Of a DNA stretch of 64,000 nt, positions 3,324 through 14,343 are shown one piece after another. Numbering within the stretch: the first letter of the stretch is position 1; each line of letters opens with the position of its first letter. Location of the stretch: IMG/VR virus record IMGVR_UViG_3300033144_003548; one strand, written 5' to 3'. Origin of the DNA: a virus. Position numbers and translations under genes: made by a program. The notes beneath the pieces were generated by a model. That model was given only the letters and a program-made list of their open reading frames with translations. It did no database searches and had not been told where the DNA came from.

Positions 3324-3543
3324 CTTCCCTTCCTTGTTGTCTACTTTTTATTAACTTATCTCTCTTTTTCTTTGCTCGCTTCACAGAAGGTTTTACATAT
3401 GCTTCCCGCTCTTTTAGTTCCCTGAATAAACCAGAAGCCTGAACCATACGATTAAAACGAGAAAGCATAGAATCTAAATAAGCTGAACTCTCTGGATTTT
3501 TCCTATATAATTCTTCCTCAAATTTCGTTAACTTTACGTACAT
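3190..3543 (-). CDS. rpsU: ribosomal protein bS21 homolog
   Basis: LSRFNRMVQASGLFRELKEREAYVKPSVKRAKKK matches the bS21 core (F...V...G...ELK.RE.Y.KPS.KR). Confidence 0.82.
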   Translation of the reverse strand: MYVKLTKFEEELYRKNPESSAYLDSMLSRFNRMVQASGLFRELKEREAYVKPSVKRAKKKRDKLIKSRQQGREDAVYKKRASGSSRQRRRRANRGSKENQGQRPGRVFQLYNNKNSE

Positions 3544-5226: not shown

Positions 5227-5781
5227 CTATACTTCATCCCCCCAAAAATCCCAACCTTCGGTGTACTCTGTATCATCCTTCAAACGAGCAAAAAGTTCTA
5301 TTCGTGGTAAATCACCCATTAAATCAACTATTTTCTTCCTCGTTATATCTGGTTTCTGAGAGTGCCTCCGTATTGGCTCATCTATAATTTGATGAACATT
5401 CTTATTTACCCGTTTAGGATTGCCCTTAGTTCCAAGTAAAATAACTTCAGCATTTGCTCTAGTCCAGTAGCCCATCCCCGTAAACCAGGTAGGTGCTTTC
5501 TTGTTTCTCTTTACCCACACAAAGGCAATTGTCTTATAAGAGAAACCCCAAGACTGCATTACCTCAAGAGCTTCGGGTATCATTGGACAAGTAGCCCACA
5601 GAAACAATGTACAATCCTTATCAACAATATTACCTACAGGAAGAGCTTTAATCTCCTCTAAAATCATAGTCCGATAATGACTATCGGCACTTCTTCCACA
5701 ACCAGTATCTCTATTCCAAACTCTAAATCGCCAAGGCGGATCGGCATACAGTATGTTATATCTTTTGTTCGGTAAGTCCAT
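5227..5781 (-). CDS. MT-A70 family N6-adenine methyltransferase
   Basis: YADPPW, LFLWAT, WGF.YKT..FVWVK, HSQKP, RIELFAR. Confidence 0.92.
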   Translation of the reverse strand: MDLPNKRYNILYADPPWRFRVWNRDTGCGRSADSHYRTMILEEIKALPVGNIVDKDCTLFLWATCPMIPEALEVMQSWGFSYKTIAFVWVKRNKKAPTWFTGMGYWTRANAEVILLGTKGNPKRVNKNVHQIIDEPIRRHSQKPDITRKKIVDLMGDLPRIELFARLKDDTEYTEGWDFWGDEV

Positions 5782-6234: not shown

Positions 6235-8184
6235 TTAAACTAAGCCATCTTTAATCCTTTGAATTCGTGGTAAACACCAACGTTCCCTCCATTCTTCTAC
6301 TATTATATCAAATTCTTTATAGTTTGTCAAGTCCAATGTATCGGTCTCTTCTCTCAGGAACTCTCTGTAGTTCTTGGCAAGAGGAATGACGTAAACTCCT
6401 CTAAAGTTTTCGATACTTTGAACCTTCCAATACTTGGAAAGCTTTTGATACCCCTTCACCACTCCATACTTTTCTTTTATTGAACCATCTTCGTTATAGT
6501 AAATTTCGGAGTGCTTACCTTTGGTTTTCTTGAAATCCTCACGCATCTGCTGTTTAACTTCGAGTGGAACAAGAACAGAGGAATAACCTTTAGATGTACC
6601 TAGATAAATAAATCCATCTAATCTATTGTAGAGACTAGATTTACCGTAAAGAGAAGTTACAGTCATCATCGCTAACCGATGACCATATTTGTTTTCAAAA
6701 TAATCTTGAACCTCTTTACTTTTTGTGGATAGAGCACATAACTTACCTGCTAAATAATTACCAAATTCTGGTGTTGATATACAATGCTGCACATTCATCA
6801 GGTAATTGATTCTCTTGCCCTTCCACTTGTTTTGGTGTGTCCAACCTATAAATTTATCTCTGATGGGAATGGTCAAATCGCTAGCCAGCCCCACAATTCC
6901 AATAATAAATCCAGTTTCACGATCCCGAACTAAGTAATGAATCCTTCTACCAACTTCACCACTATTTCCGCACCAAACAGGTTTTCCATTTCTCCTCACC
7001 ATAATAATCTGATTGGGTACTGTTACGCAATATATCTTACCATCATAGTCTACCCAACTTCTTTTATCTTTATGTGAGTTAGGATTATATGTATTATAGG
7101 TAGGATTAAAAGTAACTATATACGCTTTATTTCCAACGCTATTGATATAGCTTCGTAATTTGGTATTATAACCAAGTTTAAGACATATTTCACTAATGTC
7201 ATCTGCTAATCTTTTAGATATAGTACTATACGTTCTCTCTCTACTACCATCATTCCTATCTCTATTACATCCATCTCCCAACATAGCAAAATCTAACAAT
7301 AGTCTTAATTGCTTTTTAGGTAATCCCTTTATACAGGTAGGAATGTACTTACTATCTCTTTTTCCTAGCTTATTAAAATAAGCTGCCCAAACTTTGTTAC
7401 CCAAAACGATTCTTCTACTCTTCGTAGACTTCTTCTGTAACGAATACTTAATACCAGCTTTATCTAGCACATCTAAAAATGTATCTAACTTATCACCAGT
7501 ATTTTGTGTAAAACAAACAGAATACTTTGTAGTATGACCTTCAGCCAGATAGAAACCAAGTATTGATACGAAGGTGTTAATATCTAATACGACATCATCA
7601 TAATGTTTACCTTTTGGGATATGATCAACTTTTGGTAGAGTAAAATAATCTATATGATTACCACACCAGTCAAATTTAGAAGTGTATCTAACACATCTAG
7701 TAGACTCATCAGCCCTAATCAAGTTAAAATCTAAATGCTTATCCCTACTTATAAATAAATTATGATTCGGAGTAACTAACAAATCTATGCTGCCACTTTG
7801 TTTAAACATCTTACCACTATAGTGCTCATTGACATAGTGTGTTGGTAGTTGATACTCCAGCTTATTAGTCTCTCTATTAAGCGTTGCCACCTTAACACTT
7901 GGTATTAAATCGCAAAATCGCATCCAACCAAGCTCAGTTAAAATGTCTGTTTCCTCGTCATAACAAAGGGGTGCAGATGAGACGGTAACACGACCGTACC
8001 ACCATAAATCATTCAAATCTTTAGTTTCACAAAACTCTATATATGGTTGAATCTTCTCTACATCAGGAACAATCGCTTGAACAGCTTCCCACTTCGGTCT
8101 AATTTGTCCCAAACGTTTTGCATTCTTATCAATGTACTGCTGCCTAGCCTCAAGCAGTCTTTCTCTCAACTCTTCCTTATCCAA
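6235..8184 (-). CDS. DUF4338/DruA-like protein, intein-containing
   Basis: Extein motifs SSAP..VGRRIHYLVRD..G.IIG, RD.FIGW, GKL, TSLYGKSSLYNRL, LGTSKG. Confidence 0.7.
   Translation of the reverse strand: MDKEELRERLLEARQQYIDKNAKRLGQIRPKWEAVQAIVPDVEKIQPYIEFCETKDLNDLWWYGRVTVSSAPLCYDEETDILTELGWMRFCDLIPSVKVATLNRETNKLEYQLPTHYVNEHYSGKMFKQSGSIDLLVTPNHNLFISRDKHLDFNLIRADESTRCVRYTSKFDWCGNHIDYFTLPKVDHIPKGKHYDDVVLDINTFVSILGFYLAEGHTTKYSVCFTQNTGDKLDTFLDVLDKAGIKYSLQKKSTKSRRIVLGNKVWAAYFNKLGKRDSKYIPTCIKGLPKKQLRLLLDFAMLGDGCNRDRNDGSRERTYSTISKRLADDISEICLKLGYNTKLRSYINSVGNKAYIVTFNPTYNTYNPNSHKDKRSWVDYDGKIYCVTVPNQIIMVRRNGKPVWCGNSGEVGRRIHYLVRDRETGFIIGIVGLASDLTIPIRDKFIGWTHQNKWKGKRINYLMNVQHCISTPEFGNYLAGKLCALSTKSKEVQDYFENKYGHRLAMMTVTSLYGKSSLYNRLDGFIYLGTSKGYSSVLVPLEVKQQMREDFKKTKGKHSEIYYNEDGSIKEKYGVVKGYQKLSKYWKVQSIENFRGVYVIPLAKNYREFLREETDTLDLTNYKEFDIIVEEWRERWCLPRIQRIKDGLV
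6964..7965 (-). mobile_element. intein (334 aa) with LAGLIDADG homing endonuclease
   Basis: N-terminal CYDEETDILTELGW, block B VTPNH, LGFYLAEG and AMLGDG motifs, C-terminal YCVTVPN..VRRNGK..WCGN/S. Confidence 0.92.
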
Positions 8185-8452: not shown

Positions 8453-8781
8453 CACTTCTTCCTTTTCGGAATTTTCTTTCGTGTATAACACTTGAATCTG
8501 AATTTGCAATCATCACAGGTTTCATATTTTTCGCACTCGAACAGAATTTCATAATCCCCCTTAATCTCTTGCCACTGTTTGCATCCCATCATATGCTCGA
8601 TGAGACATTCATAACAGAACCACCTATGACAGCCCCAACATTCACGTAAGTCAGTTATTCTATGACACCCTTGACACCATTTGGGCAAGTTAAAATCGGG
8701 AAATCTATCTCTGTTTCTAAACCCTATTCTATCTCTTGCAATTAAATTGTAAACCGCAAGATCACTAATTTCTACGTCCAT
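8452..8781 (-). CDS. Cys-rich protein (CxxCxxRFxC family)
   Basis: Several CxxC motifs plus CDDCKFRFKCYT. Confidence 0.6.
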   Translation of the reverse strand: MDVEISDLAVYNLIARDRIGFRNRDRFPDFNLPKWCQGCHRITDLRECWGCHRWFCYECLIEHMMGCKQWQEIKGDYEILFECEKYETCDDCKFRFKCYTRKKIPKRKK

Positions 8782-9347
8782 AGCTCCACAGAATCAATTT
8801 CATTACCCCAAGCATCCCAACCTTCCACCTTTTCTCTAGCAAAAAGTTCAATACGAGGCAAATCACCACACAACGATACTATTCTACTCCTTACCTCATT
8901 CGGTTTTGATGAGTGGATTCTTCTGTCTGGTATTGGTTCGTTCACAAATTGCAAGACGTAATGATTCTTGACGAGATGCCTCGTTCTTCCTCTTAACCCC
9001 AAAAAACATAACTCACAACTCCTTCTAGTGTAAGGAGTCAATGTCGTTCTGACCTTATTTTCATTGTGTAATGAACGCTTATTCCAAACGAAAGCAATAC
9101 CAGAATACTTAAATCCCCAAGCCTTCATAAACTCAGCAATACGGGGTATCCTGCTGTCAATAACCCACAAAAACAAGAAAGCATCGTCACCCACTATCGA
9201 TTTCACAGGTAATGACATTATCTCCTCATCTGTCATTACTCCATAAGGAACTTGTTTGCCCCCGCCAATCGAGCCAGCAGTTAATCCACCAAAAACATAC
9301 CCAGTATCCCAGGGGGGATCAGCGTAAATTATTTGGTACTTCAACAT
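8772..9347 (-). CDS. second MT-A70 family methyltransferase
   Basis: YADPPW, LFLWV, WGFKY, HSSKP, RIELFARE..GWDAWGNE. Confidence 0.9.
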   Translation of the reverse strand: MLKYQIIYADPPWDTGYVFGGLTAGSIGGGKQVPYGVMTDEEIMSLPVKSIVGDDAFLFLWVIDSRIPRIAEFMKAWGFKYSGIAFVWNKRSLHNENKVRTTLTPYTRRSCELCFLGLRGRTRHLVKNHYVLQFVNEPIPDRRIHSSKPNEVRSRIVSLCGDLPRIELFAREKVEGWDAWGNEIDSVELWT

Positions 9348-10836: not shown

Positions 10837-11067
10837 CTAATCCCACTGTGGGTCCCATCCATTCTTGCGTCTCCACCGCTCATACTCACCCCGTTTCTCG
10901 CAAGATGAGTGCCAATAACAAATCTCATCATTTGTATGAGCATCACACGTATTACACGGATTATGGTCTTGTATCAATTCATAGATGCGTTTACATTCAG
11001 GACAATCATCAATTGTTCCTGGATACCTAAGCTTATGCTTTCTGCACAACGATAATGTTCTTACCAT
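10837..11067 (-). CDS. Cys-rich hypothetical protein
   Basis: Start trimmed to MVRTLSLC, just 3' of tRNA-Gly. Confidence 0.55.
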   Translation of the reverse strand: MVRTLSLCRKHKLRYPGTIDDCPECKRIYELIQDHNPCNTCDAHTNDEICYWHSSCEKRGEYERWRRKNGWDPQWD

Positions 11068-11070
11068 ATG

Positions 11071-11144
11071 AGCGTCTGGAGAGATTTGGACTCTCACTTA
11101 CTGGTTGGAAGCCAGTCGTGCTAACCGTTAAACACTACAAACGC
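11071..11144 (-). tRNA. tRNA-Gly(TCC)
   Basis: Acceptor GCGTTTG/CAGACGC; arm ACTGG-CTTCCAA-CCAGT; T-loop variant TCCAAAT; U discriminator. Confidence 0.82.
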
Positions 11145-11149
11145 ATAGT

Positions 11150-11320
11150 GCCTACTGGTAAAGAGAAGAAAGTGAAGTCGTTAGAATTTAAAAAACACTA
11201 AAAGGCTAAACACGTTTACGTCCTTTTGTCTAGTCTCTTTACCGATGGACATCACAATGGACTAGATAACATCTGCCAAAGTAGTAACAACTATTTCACA
11301 ATCTAATCCCACCAGTAGGC
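11150..11320 (-). ncRNA. structured ncRNA directly downstream of the Ro60 gene (divergent Y-like candidate)
   Basis: 10-bp terminal stem GCCTACTGGT/ACCAGTAGGC; inner GTGAA..AGTTGTTA/TAACGACTTCAC; hairpins TCTAGTC/GACTAGA and AAAAGG/CCTTTT. Confidence 0.6.
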
Positions 11321-11338
11321 TATCAAGCAATCACCCGA

Positions 11339-12655
11339 TTAAAAACCACCTGTTTCGTAAGCTCTAATGTAATTCAAGACGGCTTCTGACCAACCATCAA
11401 TGTGAGTCCAGTTGCCGTAACCTACACCTCTCTGGTAAGAAGCAACATTTATCATATAACCCCTACCATTTGGTTTGCCAACTCTATCACTTGACTGCTC
11501 ATCAGTTATAACAAGTAGTCGGTCATAATTTGTGTTATTAACTGCGTTAACAGCACCACCTAGAGAAGTTCCGCCGTGAGGCTGAGAATTAATTATAGCA
11601 TCCCTCAATGCAAATCCGTGCCTTGCAGCAACTCTCTTTGCATTATTTGAGAATGTCCATATCTCAGCATCATCTGACATTTCTCTAGCCAGTATTGCCA
11701 GACCACAAGCAGCATCCATCGCAGTTAACTCTGACTTACCAGACAACCTTGAACCCATACTGCCAGACACATCCACCAACACCGTAGTTTTACCATCCAA
11801 CTTACCCTGACTTGCAACAGCCTTGAACATAGCCTTTTCTAGTTCAGTTTCCCACTGGGGTGCGTGGCTAGCTGCTGTAATAAATCTAAATGGTAAAACT
11901 CTGTCTACCTTCATATGGTCTAGAGCATCCTTCACCAACACCTCATCGACACCAGATTGGTGCATATTCCTCAAGTTACGAAGCAGAGCCATAGCTCCAA
12001 GCTTCCCATCTTTGATTAAACGCTCAAAAGTATCCTTCTTATCCTTACCAGCACTTAAATTAACTTCCCAAGTATCAGGTGCTGCCAAAGTCCCATCAAC
12101 CAATTGCTTCCAAGTATCCACCTGTTCTTTGCTTGTTGGTTTTGGGTGAGTAAGGAACAAAACATCTCTCAACTTAACTTCAGCATCTCTATTGTACTTG
12201 GCAAGCTCGTATTCATCAAACTTAGGAAAAGCTTCTGCCAAACCCTTCTTAACTTGTGCTGACAAGGGTTGCCTGCCGTCCTTCCAGTAAATCTTCAAAA
12301 ACTCGGCAGGCTCATCTGCACGTTGCATTATTCTTGCCAAAGTTTCCTTTACCAAGTGCTTGTGAGTATTGTGCTTAGCCATTTCACGCACAATTAGCAA
12401 AGGAACGTGACGCAGCTTCATTTGCTCCCTAGCTTCGATAGCTATCTCAGCCACCTTCTCTGGTTTTACTTTAGGCACAAGATCAGCTATTCTTTGAGCA
12501 ATATCCTTTCCACTCTCGTAGAAAGTGTTCTCCCAAAGCAAGCAAGCCATAACTGACCTTCTTAGCTCCAGCTCAGGACTTATCCTTCTTGCTGGACCTC
12601 CCTCGTGTGTGTAGATAGGAACTCTTGTTCTTGTTGCCGTGTTTGTTCTCACCAT
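11339..12655 (-). CDS. rsr: Ro60/TROVE domain RNA-binding protein
   Basis: THEGG, ELRRSV.ACLLWE..FYESG, QRADE, FDEY.LAKY, DTWEV.LS, MALLRNLRN, LPFRF; vWA MIDAS DVSGSM, ITDEQ. Confidence 0.95.
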   Translation of the reverse strand: MVRTNTATRTRVPIYTHEGGPARRISPELELRRSVMACLLWENTFYESGKDIAQRIADLVPKVKPEKVAEIAIEAREQMKLRHVPLLIVREMAKHNTHKHLVKETLARIMQRADEPAEFLKIYWKDGRQPLSAQVKKGLAEAFPKFDEYELAKYNRDAEVKLRDVLFLTHPKPTSKEQVDTWKQLVDGTLAAPDTWEVNLSAGKDKKDTFERLIKDGKLGAMALLRNLRNMHQSGVDEVLVKDALDHMKVDRVLPFRFITAASHAPQWETELEKAMFKAVASQGKLDGKTTVLVDVSGSMGSRLSGKSELTAMDAACGLAILAREMSDDAEIWTFSNNAKRVAARHGFALRDAIINSQPHGGTSLGGAVNAVNNTNYDRLLVITDEQSSDRVGKPNGRGYMINVASYQRGVGYGNWTHIDGWSEAVLNYIRAYETGGF

Positions 12656-12680
12656 ATCTAACTCCTTTCCTTTAATAAAA

Positions 12681-12797
12681 ATAAGGGGAACAAGCGACTA
12701 GAGTACGTTATCCCCAACTCACTCTCACTAAGGAGAGCCGTTGGAGTATACAAACTTCAAATTCTGTACGAAGTAACTCTTGTCTTCACCACCTTAT
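12681..12797 (-). ncRNA. Y-RNA-like unit 1
   Basis: ATAAGG-TGGTGAAGACAAGAGTTACTTCG...GTACTCTAGTCGCTTGTTCC-CCTTAT. Confidence 0.8.
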
Positions 12798-12804
12798 ACC
12801 GATA

Positions 12805-12887
12805 ACGGGGGACAAGCGACTAGGCTCTGTCAAAGCGTTTATTTTGTGAAAATAATCTTACGAAGAAATCCTAATCTTCACCACCGT
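12805..12887 (-). ncRNA. Y-RNA-like unit 2
   Basis: ACGG-TGGTGAAGATTAGGATTTCTTCG...CCTAGTCGCTTGTCCC-CCGT. Confidence 0.78.
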
Positions 12888-12898
12888 CAAATTCCGAT

Positions 12899-13026
12899 TT
12901 TGGTAGGGAACAGACGACCAGAGTACAAGGCTTTCGCCTTTTCGCTGGAGTCGAACCAGCAAAGATTGTTTTCAGACAATTTGTATTCCATACACGAAGT
13001 ATCTCTAATCTATCACCACTACCAAA
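12899..13026 (-). ncRNA. Y-RNA-like unit 3 (contains a T-arm)
   Basis: TTTGGTAG-TGGTGATAGATTAGAGATACTTCG...GCTGGTTCGACTCCAGC...GTACTCTGGTCGTCTGTTCC-CTACCAAA. Confidence 0.8.
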
Positions 13027-13028
13027 TT

Positions 13029-13235
13029 TTAACGTTCTACTCTTTGTATTTTAAAGAGATTATATTCATTCTTATCAAAACACCCATTGGGACACTTTGC
13101 ATAAACTAACCACAGATTCCGATTACCTTTTTCGGCATAAGCAAATGTCAAAGTAGCACCGCATCTATTGCAAGGATTCTGCTCAAGCACTTTCGAAACA
13201 ACATCTCCTAACTCTACCGCCAAAGGTCTTGTCAT
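13029..13235 (-). CDS. small Zn-finger protein inside the Y-RNA array
   Basis: MTRPLAVE...CNRCG...CPNGC; RBS GGAG. Confidence 0.6.
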   Translation of the reverse strand: MTRPLAVELGDVVSKVLEQNPCNRCGATLTFAYAEKGNRNLWLVYAKCPNGCFDKNEYNLFKIQRVER

Positions 13236-13248
13236 AATTCTCCAAATA

Positions 13249-13344
13249 AGTAGGGAACAAGCGACTCCAGCAAAGCAGCCACCCACAATGGGTGGTTTGT
13301 ATTCGAATTAGCAGTTCGATGCAACTGAAATCTTCACCACTACT
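13249..13344 (-). ncRNA. Y-RNA-like unit 4 (anticodon-like arm)
   Basis: AGTAG-TGGTGAAGATTTCAGTTGCATCG...TGCTGGAGTCGCTTGTTCC-CTACT. Confidence 0.8.
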
Positions 13345-13355
13345 ATATTTCCGAT

Positions 13356-13486
13356 GGATAGGGTACAAGCGAAAAGAGTACAATAAGCGTCCTATCTTAG
13401 ACGAACCCCACTCGGTGGGGTGTAGGATTCGATACCTACATTACTGCATCCACACTGCGAAGTAACTCTCCTCTTCGCCACTATCC
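13356..13486 (-). ncRNA. YrlA-type Y RNA unit 5 (permuted tRNA-like domain)
   Basis: GGATAG-TGGCGAAGAGGAGAGTTACTTCG...T-arm, loop-closed acceptor stem, D-arm...GTACTCTTTTCGCTTGTACC-CTATCC. Confidence 0.85.
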
Positions 13487-13502
13487 TGAGCTAGTTTCCT
13501 AG

Positions 13503-13784
13503 CTATGCCCAGTCCTTGTATTCCTCATCACTAATTCCAATGACATCGGCTTCTAGGTTAGTCCTAGAGATTGCTTGACCGAGCTTGGTATGCAACCTCG
13601 AATACTTCAAAATCTTCTGATGATTAGTCTCGAAATCGAAGTTTGGTTGCCAGTCCGCATCGGGGTGCTCCCCTCTACTTCCAAATGATCTATAAGACCA
13701 TCCGTGCTGTTGCTCTAGATTACGAAGATGGGAAATCTCCGCAGCTAATGCTTTCTGTGTTTGAAGTGCTGTTGCAATCTTCAT
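13503..13784 (-). CDS. helical protein, possibly DIP1984-like
   Basis: MKIATALQTQKAL..EI..L...L..AI.RTN pattern; first gene after the promoter. Confidence 0.5.
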   Translation of the reverse strand: MKIATALQTQKALAAEISHLRNLEQQHGWSYRSFGSRGEHPDADWQPNFDFETNHQKILKYSRLHTKLGQAISRTNLEADVIGISDEEYKDWA

Positions 13785-13810
13785 ATTTCTTTCTTCACCT
13801 TCCTGTCACT

Positions 13811-13844
13811 ATTATAGCACATTAAAACCTAATTGTCAAGCCCC
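13811..13844 (-). promoter_or_regulatory. sigma70 promoter driving the Ro60/Y-RNA operon
   Basis: GGGGC-TTGACA-17nt-(TG)TATAAT. Confidence 0.85.
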
Positions 13845-14041
13845 ATATGAGGCAAATTATAAGCTCTCTTTGGGTCTGGTTTACTCATCCGTATCTTTAT
13901 TACAAAGATAAACTCACGTCCACAAAAACCACACGTAACTTTATCTCCATCCTTGGGGTTAGGGTGCTGAAAAGAAGTCTTTCCACACGGACACTTGAAA
14001 CCTGTAGTAACAAATGACGTTACAGTTAAACTCTTATCCAT
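13829..14041 (-). CDS. Zn-ribbon protein, probably leaderless
   Basis: CPCG...CGFCG; ATG 8 nt after the -10 box. Confidence 0.6.
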   Translation of the reverse strand: MDKSLTVTSFVTTGFKCPCGKTSFQHPNPKDGDKVTCGFCGREFIFVIKIRMSKPDPKRAYNLPHMGLDN

Positions 14042-14049
14042 CTACTAAT

Positions 14050-14083
14050 ATTATAGCACAAAACGTTTTAATTGTCAAGCCCC
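14050..14083 (-). promoter_or_regulatory. sigma70 promoter (repeat family)
   Basis: GGGGC-TTGACA-17nt-(TG)TATAAT. Confidence 0.85.
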
Positions 14084-14343
14084 CCATCACTATCCAAGCA
14101 AGCTCCAGTCTCCCACGTACCATCGGGCTGAACCAATATAAATACTTCCTCATCACCCAAAGTAATGTCAAGACCACCACTAGAAAGAGGAGCAATAAAT
14201 AAACCATCAAGAAAATGTTTAGCTGTTTTGAGTGCTTCTTTTGTTATTGGATAACCACCACAGCTATCCCAATCCTTCTCAAGCTTTGCGAACTCTTTTA
14301 ATTCTTGTCTCAACAGCTTTCTTATTTCTTTACTATGCTTCAC
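14068..14343 (-). CDS. hypothetical protein, probably leaderless
   Basis: L.KDWDS.GG.PI...A...A..FL...P...GG motif; GTG 6 nt after the -10 box. Confidence 0.65.
   Translation of the reverse strand: MKHSKEIRKLLRQELKEFAKLEKDWDSCGGYPITKEALKTAKHFLDGLFIAPLSSGGLDITLGDEEVFILVQPDGTWETGACLDSDGGLDN

What the first reader, a model, noticed from the sequence alone, without database searches (positions are those of the whole stretch)
11150..13844. Phage Ro60 operon with a tandem array of five modular Y-like RNAs (constant scaffold, variable payload)
Seen: directly upstream of a Ro60/TROVE gene, under one consensus promoter, lie five non-coding units (13356-13486, 13249-13344, 12899-13026, 12805-12887, 12681-12797). 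All follow the approximate pattern stem-GTGGYGAAGA-stem2-TTACTTCG...stem2'-GCTTGTTCC-stem'. The terminal stems covary (GGATAG/CTATCC, AGTAG/CTACT, TTTGGTAG/CTACCAAA, ACGG/CCGT, ATAAGG/CCTTAT). The inner stems also covary (GAGGAGAG/CTCTTTTC, GATTTCAG/CTGGAGTC, GATTAGAG/CTCTGGTC, GATTAGG/CCTAGTC). The enclosed sequences are unrelated to one another and fold differently. Known: bacterial Ro60 (Rsr) binds Y RNAs through a stem with a GNCGAA(N)G motif, the rest of the RNA is the effector/tether module, and the characterised loci I know carry about two Y RNAs. Inference: one protein is loaded with a repertoire of interchangeable RNA modules, a multi-specificity RNP that may tether different host enzymes or decoy host tRNA-targeting defences. 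No rtcB gene is present in this window.
Basis: partly seen in the sequence, partly recalled or inferred. Interest (0 to 1): 0.93.

Follow-up and report, generated by a model that had tools for sequence, protein, structure and literature searches.

The report
Phage Ro60 gene with five Y RNAs
An uncultured phage encodes the ring-shaped RNA-binding protein Ro60 preceded by five small partner "Y RNA" genes that share one docking stem but carry different bodies; the RNAs look real, but rows of up to eight such RNAs sit beside Ro60 genes of many phages and soil bacteria, so this is a good new example and not a new kind of system.

Summary
On the minus strand, behind a perfect extended -10 promoter, lie a 93-aa ORF, five structured units, a 68-aa ORF between units 2 and 3, and a 438-aa Ro60 gene. 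The Ro60 call rests on the TROVE and vWA/MIDAS domains and on a model that matches solved Ro60 rings.

The five units share one frame: outer stem, UGGYGAAG, inner stem, UUACUUC, body, inner stem, CGCUUGUNCC, outer stem. Both stems covary. A model built from these five alone found 37 more units beside Ro60 genes in 15 viral contigs, all on the Ro60 strand.

The handle matches the published bacterial Y RNA motif. Unit 1 is a degenerate YrlA-type tRNA mimic, unit 3 carries a T arm, and the others are hairpins.

The novelty claim fails. Caulobacter phage CcrColossus has 8 units, Xylella phage Usme 5, Brevundimonas phages 5-6, and metagenome and Acidobacteriota contigs up to 7. None is annotated as a Y RNA. 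I found no paper describing such arrays, but this scan has already followed up several on other DNA.

Function is inferred: Ro60-Y RNA particles that engage host RNA enzymes such as PNPase. Expression and binding are untested.

The parts
13811..13839 (-). Consensus sigma-70 promoter with extended -10 (TTGACA, 17 nt, TGcTATAAT)
   Evidence: 12/12 match. It is one of eight perfect copies in the window, all on the minus strand.
13503..13784 (-). orf93, the first gene of the unit; no known family
   Evidence: ORF. No Pfam or PHROG hit. It is 77% identical to an ORF at the same place in the closest relative L024 and is absent from the other loci.
13356..13486 (-). Y RNA unit 1 (131 nt): handle GGCGAAG / GCUUGUACC. 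The body has the YrlA order: T-like arm, stem-loop, D-like arm. It is degenerate (8-nt T loop, D loop without GG).
   Evidence: Its ortholog V1 in L024 has canonical T and D arms. No Rfam YrlA hit.
13249..13344 (-). Y RNA unit 2 (96 nt): handle GGUGAAG. The body is a 5-bp hairpin with loop CUGCUAA plus a 7-bp hairpin.
   Evidence: Ortholog V2 in L024.
13029..13235 (-). orf68, a small Cys-rich ORF (CxxC ... CxxxC) lying between units 2 and 3
   Evidence: ORF with a GGAGA ribosome-binding site. No family hit. Absent from L024.
12899..13026 (-). Y RNA unit 3 (128 nt): handle GGUGAUAG / GUCUGUUCC. The body has small hairpins, a canonical T arm (GCUGG-UUCGACU-CCAGC) and a GAAA-tetraloop hairpin.
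   Evidence: z -5.0; tRNA model 15.5 bits. Ortholog V3 in L024 has the same layout.
12805..12887 (-). Y RNA unit 4 (83 nt): handle GGUGAAG / GCUUGUCCC, with a single A/U-rich hairpin as body
   Evidence: No counterpart in L024.
12681..12797 (-). Y RNA unit 5 (117 nt): handle GGUGAAG / GCUUGUUCC, with two hairpins as body
   Evidence: Ortholog V4 in L024 has an identical outer stem, AUAAGG/CCUUAU.
11339..12655 (-). Ro60 / Rsr ortholog (438 aa): TROVE HEAT-repeat ring plus a vWA domain with the MIDAS residues DxSxS..T..D
11150..11320 (-). Conserved structured RNA between the Ro60 stop codon and tRNA-Gly. It is closed by a 10-bp stem and is not a Y RNA handle.
   Evidence: Fold z -3.7. Conserved in L024 with compensatory changes in the closing stem. 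Not matched by the Y RNA model.
11070..11144 (-). tRNA-Gly(UCC), co-oriented, at the end of the unit

Best explanation
This is a phage Ro60 (Rsr) operon that encodes the ring protein together with five of its own Y RNAs.

What the sequence shows: each RNA closes with a unit-specific outer stem. It then presents the same bulged handle, 5' UGGYGAAG opposite 3' CGCUUGUNCC. A covarying 7-8 bp inner stem follows, then a nearly invariant single-stranded UUACUUC. The top of each RNA carries a different body.

What is inferred:
- The handle docks on the outer face of the Ro60 ring, as in solved and tested Ro60-Y RNA pairs, so the phage makes up to five different Ro60 particles.
- The five RNAs and two small ORFs are transcribed as one precursor from the promoter at 13839 and are cut apart by host or phage RNases. 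Mycobacterium smegmatis YrlA and YrlB are made from one precursor in this way.
- By analogy with Deinococcus and Salmonella Rsr-Y RNA-PNPase and with Thermus phage phiLo Ro60-Yrl-PNPase, the particles engage host RNA-processing enzymes, with PNPase first in line. This would reshape RNA decay or quality control during infection, possibly as counter-defence.
- The different bodies (one YrlA-type tRNA mimic, one T-arm unit, three hairpin units) would set partner or substrate preference.
For: - Ro60 identity.
- Shared frame and covariation within the window.
- Independent support: a model built only from the five units found 37 further units in 15 viral contigs chosen only for a Ro60 homolog. All are on the Ro60 strand and mostly directly upstream of it.
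- The refined model found 218 units in 80 metagenome loci, 33 in GenBank phages and 26 in bacterial MAG contigs. All are co-oriented with Ro60.
- On 131 units, outer and inner stem pairs use 4-6 pair types each. Overall 86.9% of cells are paired, against 41-48% when partners are slid.
- The handle equals the published motif GNCGAAN0-1G and the Rfam YrlA consensus GGCGAAuG...aCUUGuCGcc.
- Unit sizes of 83-131 nt fit the stated 80-130 nt range for Y RNAs.
- Unit 1 and its ortholog have the YrlA order T arm, stem, D arm.
- Processing of two Y RNAs from one precursor upstream of rsr is documented.
- Phage Ro60 binding phage Y-like RNAs and host PNPase is documented for phiLo. A Ro60-like phage protein that counters the Ppl defence is reported for Bas63.
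Against: - There is no expression, processing or binding evidence for this locus.
- No unit matches Rfam YrlA (RF02553) even at E 10.
- Four of five units have U where the published motif has C. In phiLo, C-to-U at that position lowered affinity about threefold. However, U is the majority state in this clade at 72%.
- Pairs inside the handle are poorly supported, with 17-44% of cells unpaired, so the exact bulge geometry is unknown.
- Host and partner enzymes are unknown. The PNPase link is by analogy only.
Confidence: 0.82

Rival explanations
1. The array is a decoy or adaptor repertoire. The bodies imitate parts of tRNAs (anticodon arms, T arms) to absorb or redirect host tRNA-directed defence nucleases or modification enzymes. 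Ro60 would serve mainly as a protective chassis.
For: U2 shows a 5-bp stem with a 7-nt loop, CUGCUAA, identical to the anticodon loop of the phage's own tRNA-Ser(GCU). U3 has a canonical T arm and U1 a tRNA-like core. Sixteen of 36 non-T 7-nt loops in 131 family units fit the pattern U at position 2 and purine at position 6. The arrays often sit among phage tRNA genes.
Against: The U2 hairpin is not kept in its ortholog V2. UGCUA(A) recurs as an apical-loop motif right after UACUUC in 12-13 of 122 units, so it looks like a family motif and not an anticodon copy. The anticodon-like loops of U3 and U5 have 6 or 8 nt, not 7. No known anticodon nuclease target is implicated.
Confidence: 0.1
2. The units are cis-acting leader elements of the Ro60 mRNA, for example sites of autoregulation by Ro60, and not free-standing RNAs.
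For: They lie in the same transcript upstream of Ro60. A weak handle-like match spans the Ro60 start codon at 12660..12612 (11.6 bits, E 0.044).
Against: In relatives the same units lie downstream of Ro60 (L007, L014, L020, L021, L030, L031) or 1-3.5 kb upstream behind other genes (L013, L045). This does not fit a leader role. The start-codon element folds no better than shuffles. Known Y RNAs from such loci are stable free RNAs.
Confidence: 0.05
3. The units are decayed tRNA-derived repeats or other selfish repeats with no function tied to Ro60.
For: Some bodies carry tRNA pieces. GenBank annotators called two such units tRNA genes in CcrColossus and Gurke.
Against: The handle is conserved and compensatory changes abound across about 130 units. 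The units are strictly co-oriented and linked with Ro60 in about 100 loci from unrelated phages and bacteria. No copies lie elsewhere in the 64-kb window.
Confidence: 0.03

Closest known systems
Bacterial Rsr (Ro60) with YrlA and YrlB Y RNAs (Salmonella Typhimurium, Mycobacterium smegmatis; Chen et al. 2014, PMC4201824; Rfam RF02553)
   Same: The Y RNAs are encoded next to Ro60 on its strand. Two Y RNAs are processed from one precursor upstream of rsr in M. smegmatis. There is a 5' motif GNCGAAN0-1G with a 3' CUUGU partner. One RNA has a permuted tRNA-like domain (T arm, stem, D arm) and the others are plainer hairpins with pyrimidine-rich loops.
   Different: There are five units where two have been characterised. 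Four of five have GGUGAAG (U for C). No unit reaches any score with RF02553. UUACUUC is nearly invariant in every unit. Small protein genes sit inside the transcript. No rtcBA genes are in the window.
Thermus phage phiLo Ro60 with Yrl1 and Yrl2 (NAR 2025, PMC12135203; PDB 9KOP, 9L5Y)
   Same: This is the closest solved protein: E 9e-32, TM 0.74, with the MIDAS residues conserved. The phage Ro60 has Y-like RNAs directly upstream carrying a CGAA-type motif. Binding to Ro60 and to host PNPase was shown there.
   Different: Protein identity is only about 26% and there are two RNAs, not five. Nothing has been tested for the present phage.
Caulobacter phage CcrColossus gp139 (TROVE) locus and relatives (Xylella phage Usme; Brevundimonas phages Gurke and Kabachok)
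   Same: Ro60 is 51-54% identical. The same handle model finds 8, 5, 6 and 5 co-oriented units directly upstream, a mix of T+D, T-only and hairpin bodies.
   Different: Those arrays are as long or longer. Three of their units reach 30-42 bits with Rfam YrlA, still below the cut-off of 69. In GenBank they are unannotated or called tRNA.
Deinococcus radiodurans Rsr with Yrn1 and Yrn2 and PNPase (RYPER complex)
   Same: The ring fold is the same (2NVO, TM 0.70). Several small RNAs are encoded upstream of rsr. This is the model for how a Y RNA tethers Ro60 to an exoribonuclease.
   Different: No sequence-level hit to the protein by phmmer. The tether function is assumed here, not shown.
Metazoan Ro60 with Y RNAs (2-4 per vertebrate species)
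   Same: A ring protein with several paralogous Y RNAs that share a bulged Ro-binding stem (GGUCCGA type) and differ in their loops. The fold matches at TM 0.62-0.68.
   Different: Those genes are dispersed and transcribed by RNA polymerase III, with La binding and no tRNA-like module.

Membership tests
Ro60 / Rsr (TROVE + vWA ring protein) | TROVE domain | tested here: met
   Pfam PF05731 scores 64.9 bits against a cut-off of 23. PHROG 850, RNA-binding protein, 1e-52.
Ro60 / Rsr (TROVE + vWA ring protein) | C-terminal vWA domain with a MIDAS metal site (DxSxS ... T ... D) | tested here: met
   VWA_2 scores 27.4 bits (cut-off 27). vWA_Ro60 scores 26.6, just under its cut-off of 27.7. DVSGSM, GGT and TDEQ align with D322, S324, T391 and D416 of phiLo Ro60 and are invariant or nearly so in 17 homologs.
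Ro60 / Rsr (TROVE + vWA ring protein) | HEAT-repeat ring fold like the solved Ro60 structures | tested here: met
   The model has pLDDT 86.3 and pTM 0.79. The 13 best PDB matches are all Ro60: 9KOP TM 0.74, 2NVO 0.70, 1YVP and human Ro60 0.62-0.68.
Bacterial/phage Y RNA (Rsr-bound, YrlA/YrlB class in the sense of Chen et al. 2014) | Length 80-130 nt, with the 5' and 3' ends pairing into a long stem | tested here: met
   The units are 83-131 nt. Outer and inner stems are supported by compensatory changes among the five and among 131 homologs.
Bacterial/phage Y RNA (Rsr-bound, YrlA/YrlB class in the sense of Chen et al. 2014) | GNCGAAN0-1G motif near the 5' end | tested here: inconclusive
   U1 has GGCGAAG, an exact match. 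U2, U4 and U5 have GGUGAAG and U3 has GGUGAUAG. In this Ro60 clade the position is U in 72% of 131 units.
Bacterial/phage Y RNA (Rsr-bound, YrlA/YrlB class in the sense of Chen et al. 2014) | Encoded within 4 kb of Ro60 on the same strand | tested here: met
   All five units lie within 830 nt upstream of the Ro60 start on its strand. The same holds for every family hit below E 1e-3.
Bacterial/phage Y RNA (Rsr-bound, YrlA/YrlB class in the sense of Chen et al. 2014) | Physical binding to Ro60, with stability that depends on it | not testable with these tools
   This needs gel shifts, pull-down or Northern blots.
YrlA proper (Rfam RF02553) | Score at or above the Rfam gathering threshold of 69 bits | tested here: not met
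   No RF02553 match at E up to 10 on 12650-13520 or 11000-14100. As a control, the model does detect CcrColossus units at 42.3, 30.5 and 29.9 bits.
YrlA proper (Rfam RF02553) | tRNA-like domain with conserved T and D arms in the order T, acceptor-like stem, D | tested here: inconclusive
   U1 has the right order but an 8-nt T loop (UAUCGAAU) and a D loop without the GG pair. Its ortholog in L024 has canonical arms.

The most novel reading that the evidence does not exclude
The array could be a programmable set of tRNA-part mimics mounted on one Ro60 chassis. Each body (anticodon-arm-like loop, T arm, YrlA core) would capture or deflect a different host tRNA-directed enzyme or defence nuclease. 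Rapid turnover of the bodies between related phages (U4 gained or lost; U2 and U3 loops changed relative to L024) would then reflect an arms race. The nearly invariant UUACUUC would be the common effector-binding site.
Probability: 0.1. Interest if true: 0.8.

Novelty: new member of a known kind. Interest (0 to 1): 0.4.

Why it matters
Ro60-Y RNA particles are well studied in animals because of lupus and Sjogren autoimmunity, and in three bacteria. Their role in phages is only starting to be tested: phiLo binds host PNPase, and Bas63 gp130 counters the Ppl defence.

This locus adds a clean, compact example with five differently bodied Y RNAs under one strong promoter. The comparison shows that such arrays are the rule beside this Ro60 clade (2-8 units). 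It also shows that a UACUUC motif is more conserved than the Ro-binding motif itself, and that Rfam and genome annotations miss nearly all of these RNAs.

That makes a family-wide covariance model and a defined set of constructs available for testing what the different bodies recruit. The single window is not surprising to a specialist. The family pattern is the useful part.

Tried and rejected
- **Rfam.** No Y RNA or YrlA hit in the window at the gathering threshold or at E 10. RF02553 exists but reaches only sub-threshold scores on CcrColossus and none at gathering threshold on 15 viral loci.
- **A sixth unit downstream of Ro60.** The 5' half of 11320..11150 resembles handle plus inner stem, and an internal piece resembles a 3' handle. 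The Y RNA model does not match it. In L024 the conserved element lacks UGGUG. I rejected it as a Y RNA and kept it as a separate conserved structured RNA.
- **A handle mimic over the Ro60 start codon.** 12660..12612 scores 11.6 bits, E 0.044. It folds no better than shuffles, so it is probably chance.
- **orf93 as a conserved protein partner.** It is found only in L024.
- **AUCGG trailer as a family processing signal.** It is significant in this phage but absent in relatives.
- **Anticodon mimicry.** See the first rival explanation; the evidence is mixed.
- **Locating the source contig.** Exact searches of IMG/VR found nothing, no genome is held for the window, and no GenBank phage is close: Ro60 is at most 54% identical and DNA polymerase at most 33%.
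- **Reviews and supplements.** The 2020 Annual Review on bacterial Ro60 and the supplement of Chen et al. 2014 are not held. I could not check whether they list several units per phage.
Full report
**What is there**

Everything lies on the minus strand. The order is:
- a perfect extended -10 promoter, TTGACA-17-TGcTATAAT, at 13839..13811;
- a 93-aa ORF at 13784..13503;
- unit U1 at 13486..13356 and U2 at 13344..13249;
- a 68-aa Cys-rich ORF at 13235..13029 with a GGAGA ribosome-binding site;
- U3 at 13026..12899, U4 at 12887..12805 and U5 at 12797..12681;
- a 438-aa gene at 12655..11339;
- about 190 nt of structured non-coding sequence;
- tRNA-Gly(UCC) at 11144..11070.

The promoter is one of eight perfect copies in the window, all on this strand. 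Apart from a hairpin inside U1, no terminator-like site lies between it and the tRNA. Spacers between units are only 7-11 nt.

**The protein is Ro60**

- Pfam TROVE scores 64.9 bits against a cut-off of 23, with VWA_2 at 27.4. PHROG 850 gives 1e-52.
- The only solved relatives found by sequence are the two entries for Thermus phage phiLo Ro60, E 9e-32 over residues 15-436. The MIDAS residues align.
- A model built on 17 homologs (pLDDT 86, pTM 0.79) has Ro60 structures as its 13 best PDB matches. These are phiLo at TM 0.74, Deinococcus Rsr at 0.70, and Xenopus and human Ro60 at 0.62-0.68.

**The five units are real and share one frame**

The frame is: outer stem (4-8 bp, different in each unit), U-GG-Y-G-AAG, inner stem (7-8 bp beginning GA), UUACUUC, body, inner stem, C-GCUUG-UN-CC, outer stem.

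Of 21 proposed pairs, 95% of cells are standard pairs and ten pairs show changes on both sides. None of 500 shuffles reaches this, and sliding the partners gives 34-53%.

**Independent support from other genomes**

The strongest evidence comes from elsewhere. A covariance model built from these five sequences alone (R1) was run on 15 IMG/VR contigs. Those contigs were chosen only because they encode a Ro60 that is 45-64% identical. The model found 37 further units. Every one is on the Ro60 strand and nearly all are directly next to the gene.

A second model built from 40 units (R2) found:
- 2-4 units in each of those loci;
- 218 units in 80 metagenome loci;
- 33 in eight GenBank phage loci;
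- 26 in six bacterial MAG contigs from Acidobacteriota and Planctomycetales.

All are co-oriented with Ro60. On the 131 best units the stem positions use 4-6 pair types each. Overall 86.9% of cells are paired, against 41-48% when partners are slid, and 702 cells carry changes on both sides against 211 in shuffles. This alignment is fitted to the model, which favours the structure, but the margin is very large.

The pairs I drew inside the handle and the three pairs just above the inner stem are weakly supported. The handle is therefore best described as a sequence-conserved internal loop or bulged helix.

**What kind of RNA**

The handle is the known bacterial Y RNA handle. Chen et al. 2014 define GNCGAAN0-1G near the 5' end as the likely Rsr recognition motif, related to GGUCCGA of vertebrate Y RNAs. 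The Rfam YrlA consensus reads GGCGAAuG ... aCUUGuCGcc.

Here U1 has GGCGAAG, U2, U4 and U5 have GGUGAAG, and U3 has GGUGAUAG. All five have CUUGU or UCUGU on the 3' side. In this Ro60 clade, U at the variable position is the majority state at 72%.

The family consensus also shows that UACUUC, directly after the inner stem, is the most conserved part of the RNA at 93-100% per position. It overlaps the YUAY noted for YrlA.

Family unit lengths are bimodal, about 60-80 nt and about 120-140 nt. By simple motif matching, 31 of 131 have both T and D arms, which is the YrlA layout. A further 21 have a T arm only and 77 have neither. Nearly every array has at least one T+D unit.

In the window:
- U1 has the YrlA order (T-like arm, stem-loop, D-like arm) but is degenerate. 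It has an 8-nt T loop and a D loop without GG. This explains why Rfam YrlA gives no hit, whereas three CcrColossus units reach 30-42 bits.
- U3 has a canonical T arm preceded by two small hairpins and followed by a GAAA-tetraloop hairpin. It scores 15.5 bits with the tRNA model.
- U2, U4 and U5 carry hairpins only.

**Orthology with the closest relative**

The closest relative is L024, whose Ro60 is 72-73% identical. It has four units in the same order. By similarity, shared quirks and identical outer stems they match U1, U2, U3 and U5. It also has the orf93 homolog at 77% aa identity.

U4 and orf68 are absent there. The body layouts are kept: T+D in V1; T arm plus tetraloop hairpin in V3, with UUCG replacing GAAA. 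The body sequences diverge much faster than the handle.

**Is five unusual? No**

With the same model:
- Caulobacter phage CcrColossus has 8 units upstream of its TROVE gene;
- Brevundimonas phages Gurke and Kabachok have 6 and 5;
- Xylella phage Usme has 5;
- Microcystis phage Mvi-JY20 and crAss-like cr106_1 have 2 each, downstream of the gene.

Metagenome loci have 1-7, many on truncated contigs. Seven occur in L042/L097. Five occur in L029, L035, L041, L045, L077, L090, L093 and L101. Bacterial MAG contigs have up to 7.

None of these is annotated as a Y RNA. Two are annotated as tRNA genes.

In the searchable literature I found YrlA in 254 bacteria and 22 phages, at least two Y RNAs in each characterised bacterium, two Yrl RNAs in phiLo, and three abundant RNAs upstream of an Rsr-like gene in Listeria phage CKA15. 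I found no description of arrays of five to eight. I could not read the 2020 Annual Review or the 2014 supplement.

This scan has already followed up the same arrangement on other DNA, with 4, 6, 7, 8 and 9 units, and reached the same conclusion. My counts above were made independently.

**How it most likely works**

Shown by sequence: a Ro60 ring protein and five RNAs that share its cognate handle, behind one strong promoter.

Inferred from established cases:
- each RNA binds one Ro60 through the handle;
- the RNAs are released from a common precursor, as for M. smegmatis YrlA and YrlB;
- the particles engage host RNA enzymes.

The documented precedents are Rsr-Y RNA-PNPase in Deinococcus and Salmonella and phiLo Ro60-Yrl-host PNPase, which attenuates PNPase. 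A Ro60-like protein of phage Bas63 counters the Ppl defence.

The invariant single-stranded UACUUC is a natural candidate for the shared effector contact, and the bodies for specificity. That step is speculation.

The arrays frequently adjoin phage tRNA clusters, and here a tRNA-Gly follows. This fits a role in tRNA or ncRNA handling. No RtcB is present among the 19 ORFs of 338 aa or more.

**The bolder reading: tRNA-part decoys**

This is not excluded but is weak.
- U2's loop CUGCUAA equals the anticodon loop of the phage's tRNA-Ser(GCU). However, the hairpin is not kept in the ortholog.
- UGCUA(A) recurs after UACUUC in 12-13 of 122 units, followed by GAAAA in the short ones. That makes it a family loop motif.

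**Verdict**

The identification as a Ro60-Y RNA operon is well supported. The claim of an exceptional copy number is not. The function is untested. This is a new member of a known kind, and it is useful mainly as part of a family-wide pattern that the databases miss.

Noticed in passing
window 11150-11320 (minus strand); L024 about 3333-3497: A structured RNA of about 170 nt lies between the Ro60 stop codon and tRNA-Gly. It is closed by a 10-bp stem (GCCUACUGGU / ACCAGUAGGC) and folds at z -3.7. It is conserved in the closest relative, with a core of about 100 nt at about 90% identity and compensatory changes in the closing stem. It is not a Y RNA handle and has no Rfam match. It could be a further Ro60-associated RNA or a tRNA-Gly leader.
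   Followed up: partly
window 13355, 12898, 12803, 11339, 11246 (minus strand): AUCGG follows units 1, 3 and 4 within 0-1 nt. It also follows the Ro60 stop codon (UAAUCGG) and occurs inside the downstream element. The minus strand has only 42 copies in 64 kb. It is not seen after units in relatives or after this phage's tRNAs. It may be a phage-specific processing or 3'-end signal.
   Followed up: partly
window 12612-12660 (minus strand): A stem UAGAUA/UAUCUA flanked by UGGUG and GUUCC spans the Ro60 start codon. It gives a weak match to the Y RNA model (11.6 bits, E 0.044) but its fold energy is no better than shuffles. It is probably chance; autoregulation is a remote possibility.
   Followed up: partly
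window 13029-13235 (minus strand): A 68-aa ORF with CxxC ... CxxxC and its own ribosome-binding site sits inside the Y RNA array. It ends 2 nt before unit 3. It has no family match and is absent from the closest relative, as is unit 4.
   Followed up: partly
alignment A3 (131 units from about 85 loci): In the whole family, UACUUC directly after the inner stem is 93-100% conserved, more than the Ro-binding motif. Short units of about 65 nt have an apical loop of the form UACUUC-N-(U)GCUA/GGCA-UGAAAA.
   Followed up: partly
L017 3173-3240 (CcrColossus) and L023 3811-3885 (Brevundimonas phage Gurke): GenBank tRNA annotations (tRNA-Gln and tRNA-Ser) fall inside units that carry the Y RNA handle, so they are probably YrlA-type Y RNAs and not tRNAs.
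   Followed up: partly
window 6235-8184 (minus strand): A 649-aa ORF combines a DruA (Druantia) domain match (80 bits) with a LAGLIDADG-like domain, possibly an intein or homing-endonuclease insertion. Two MT-A70 methyltransferase genes lie nearby at 5227-5781 and 8772-9347.
   Followed up: no
window 1910, 6227, 6330, 13839, 14078, 14378, 31297, 50717 (minus strand): There are eight perfect TTGACA-17-TGnTATAAT promoters, all on the minus strand and none on the plus strand. Three of them stand in a row, each before a small ORF just upstream of the Y RNA operon.
   Followed up: no
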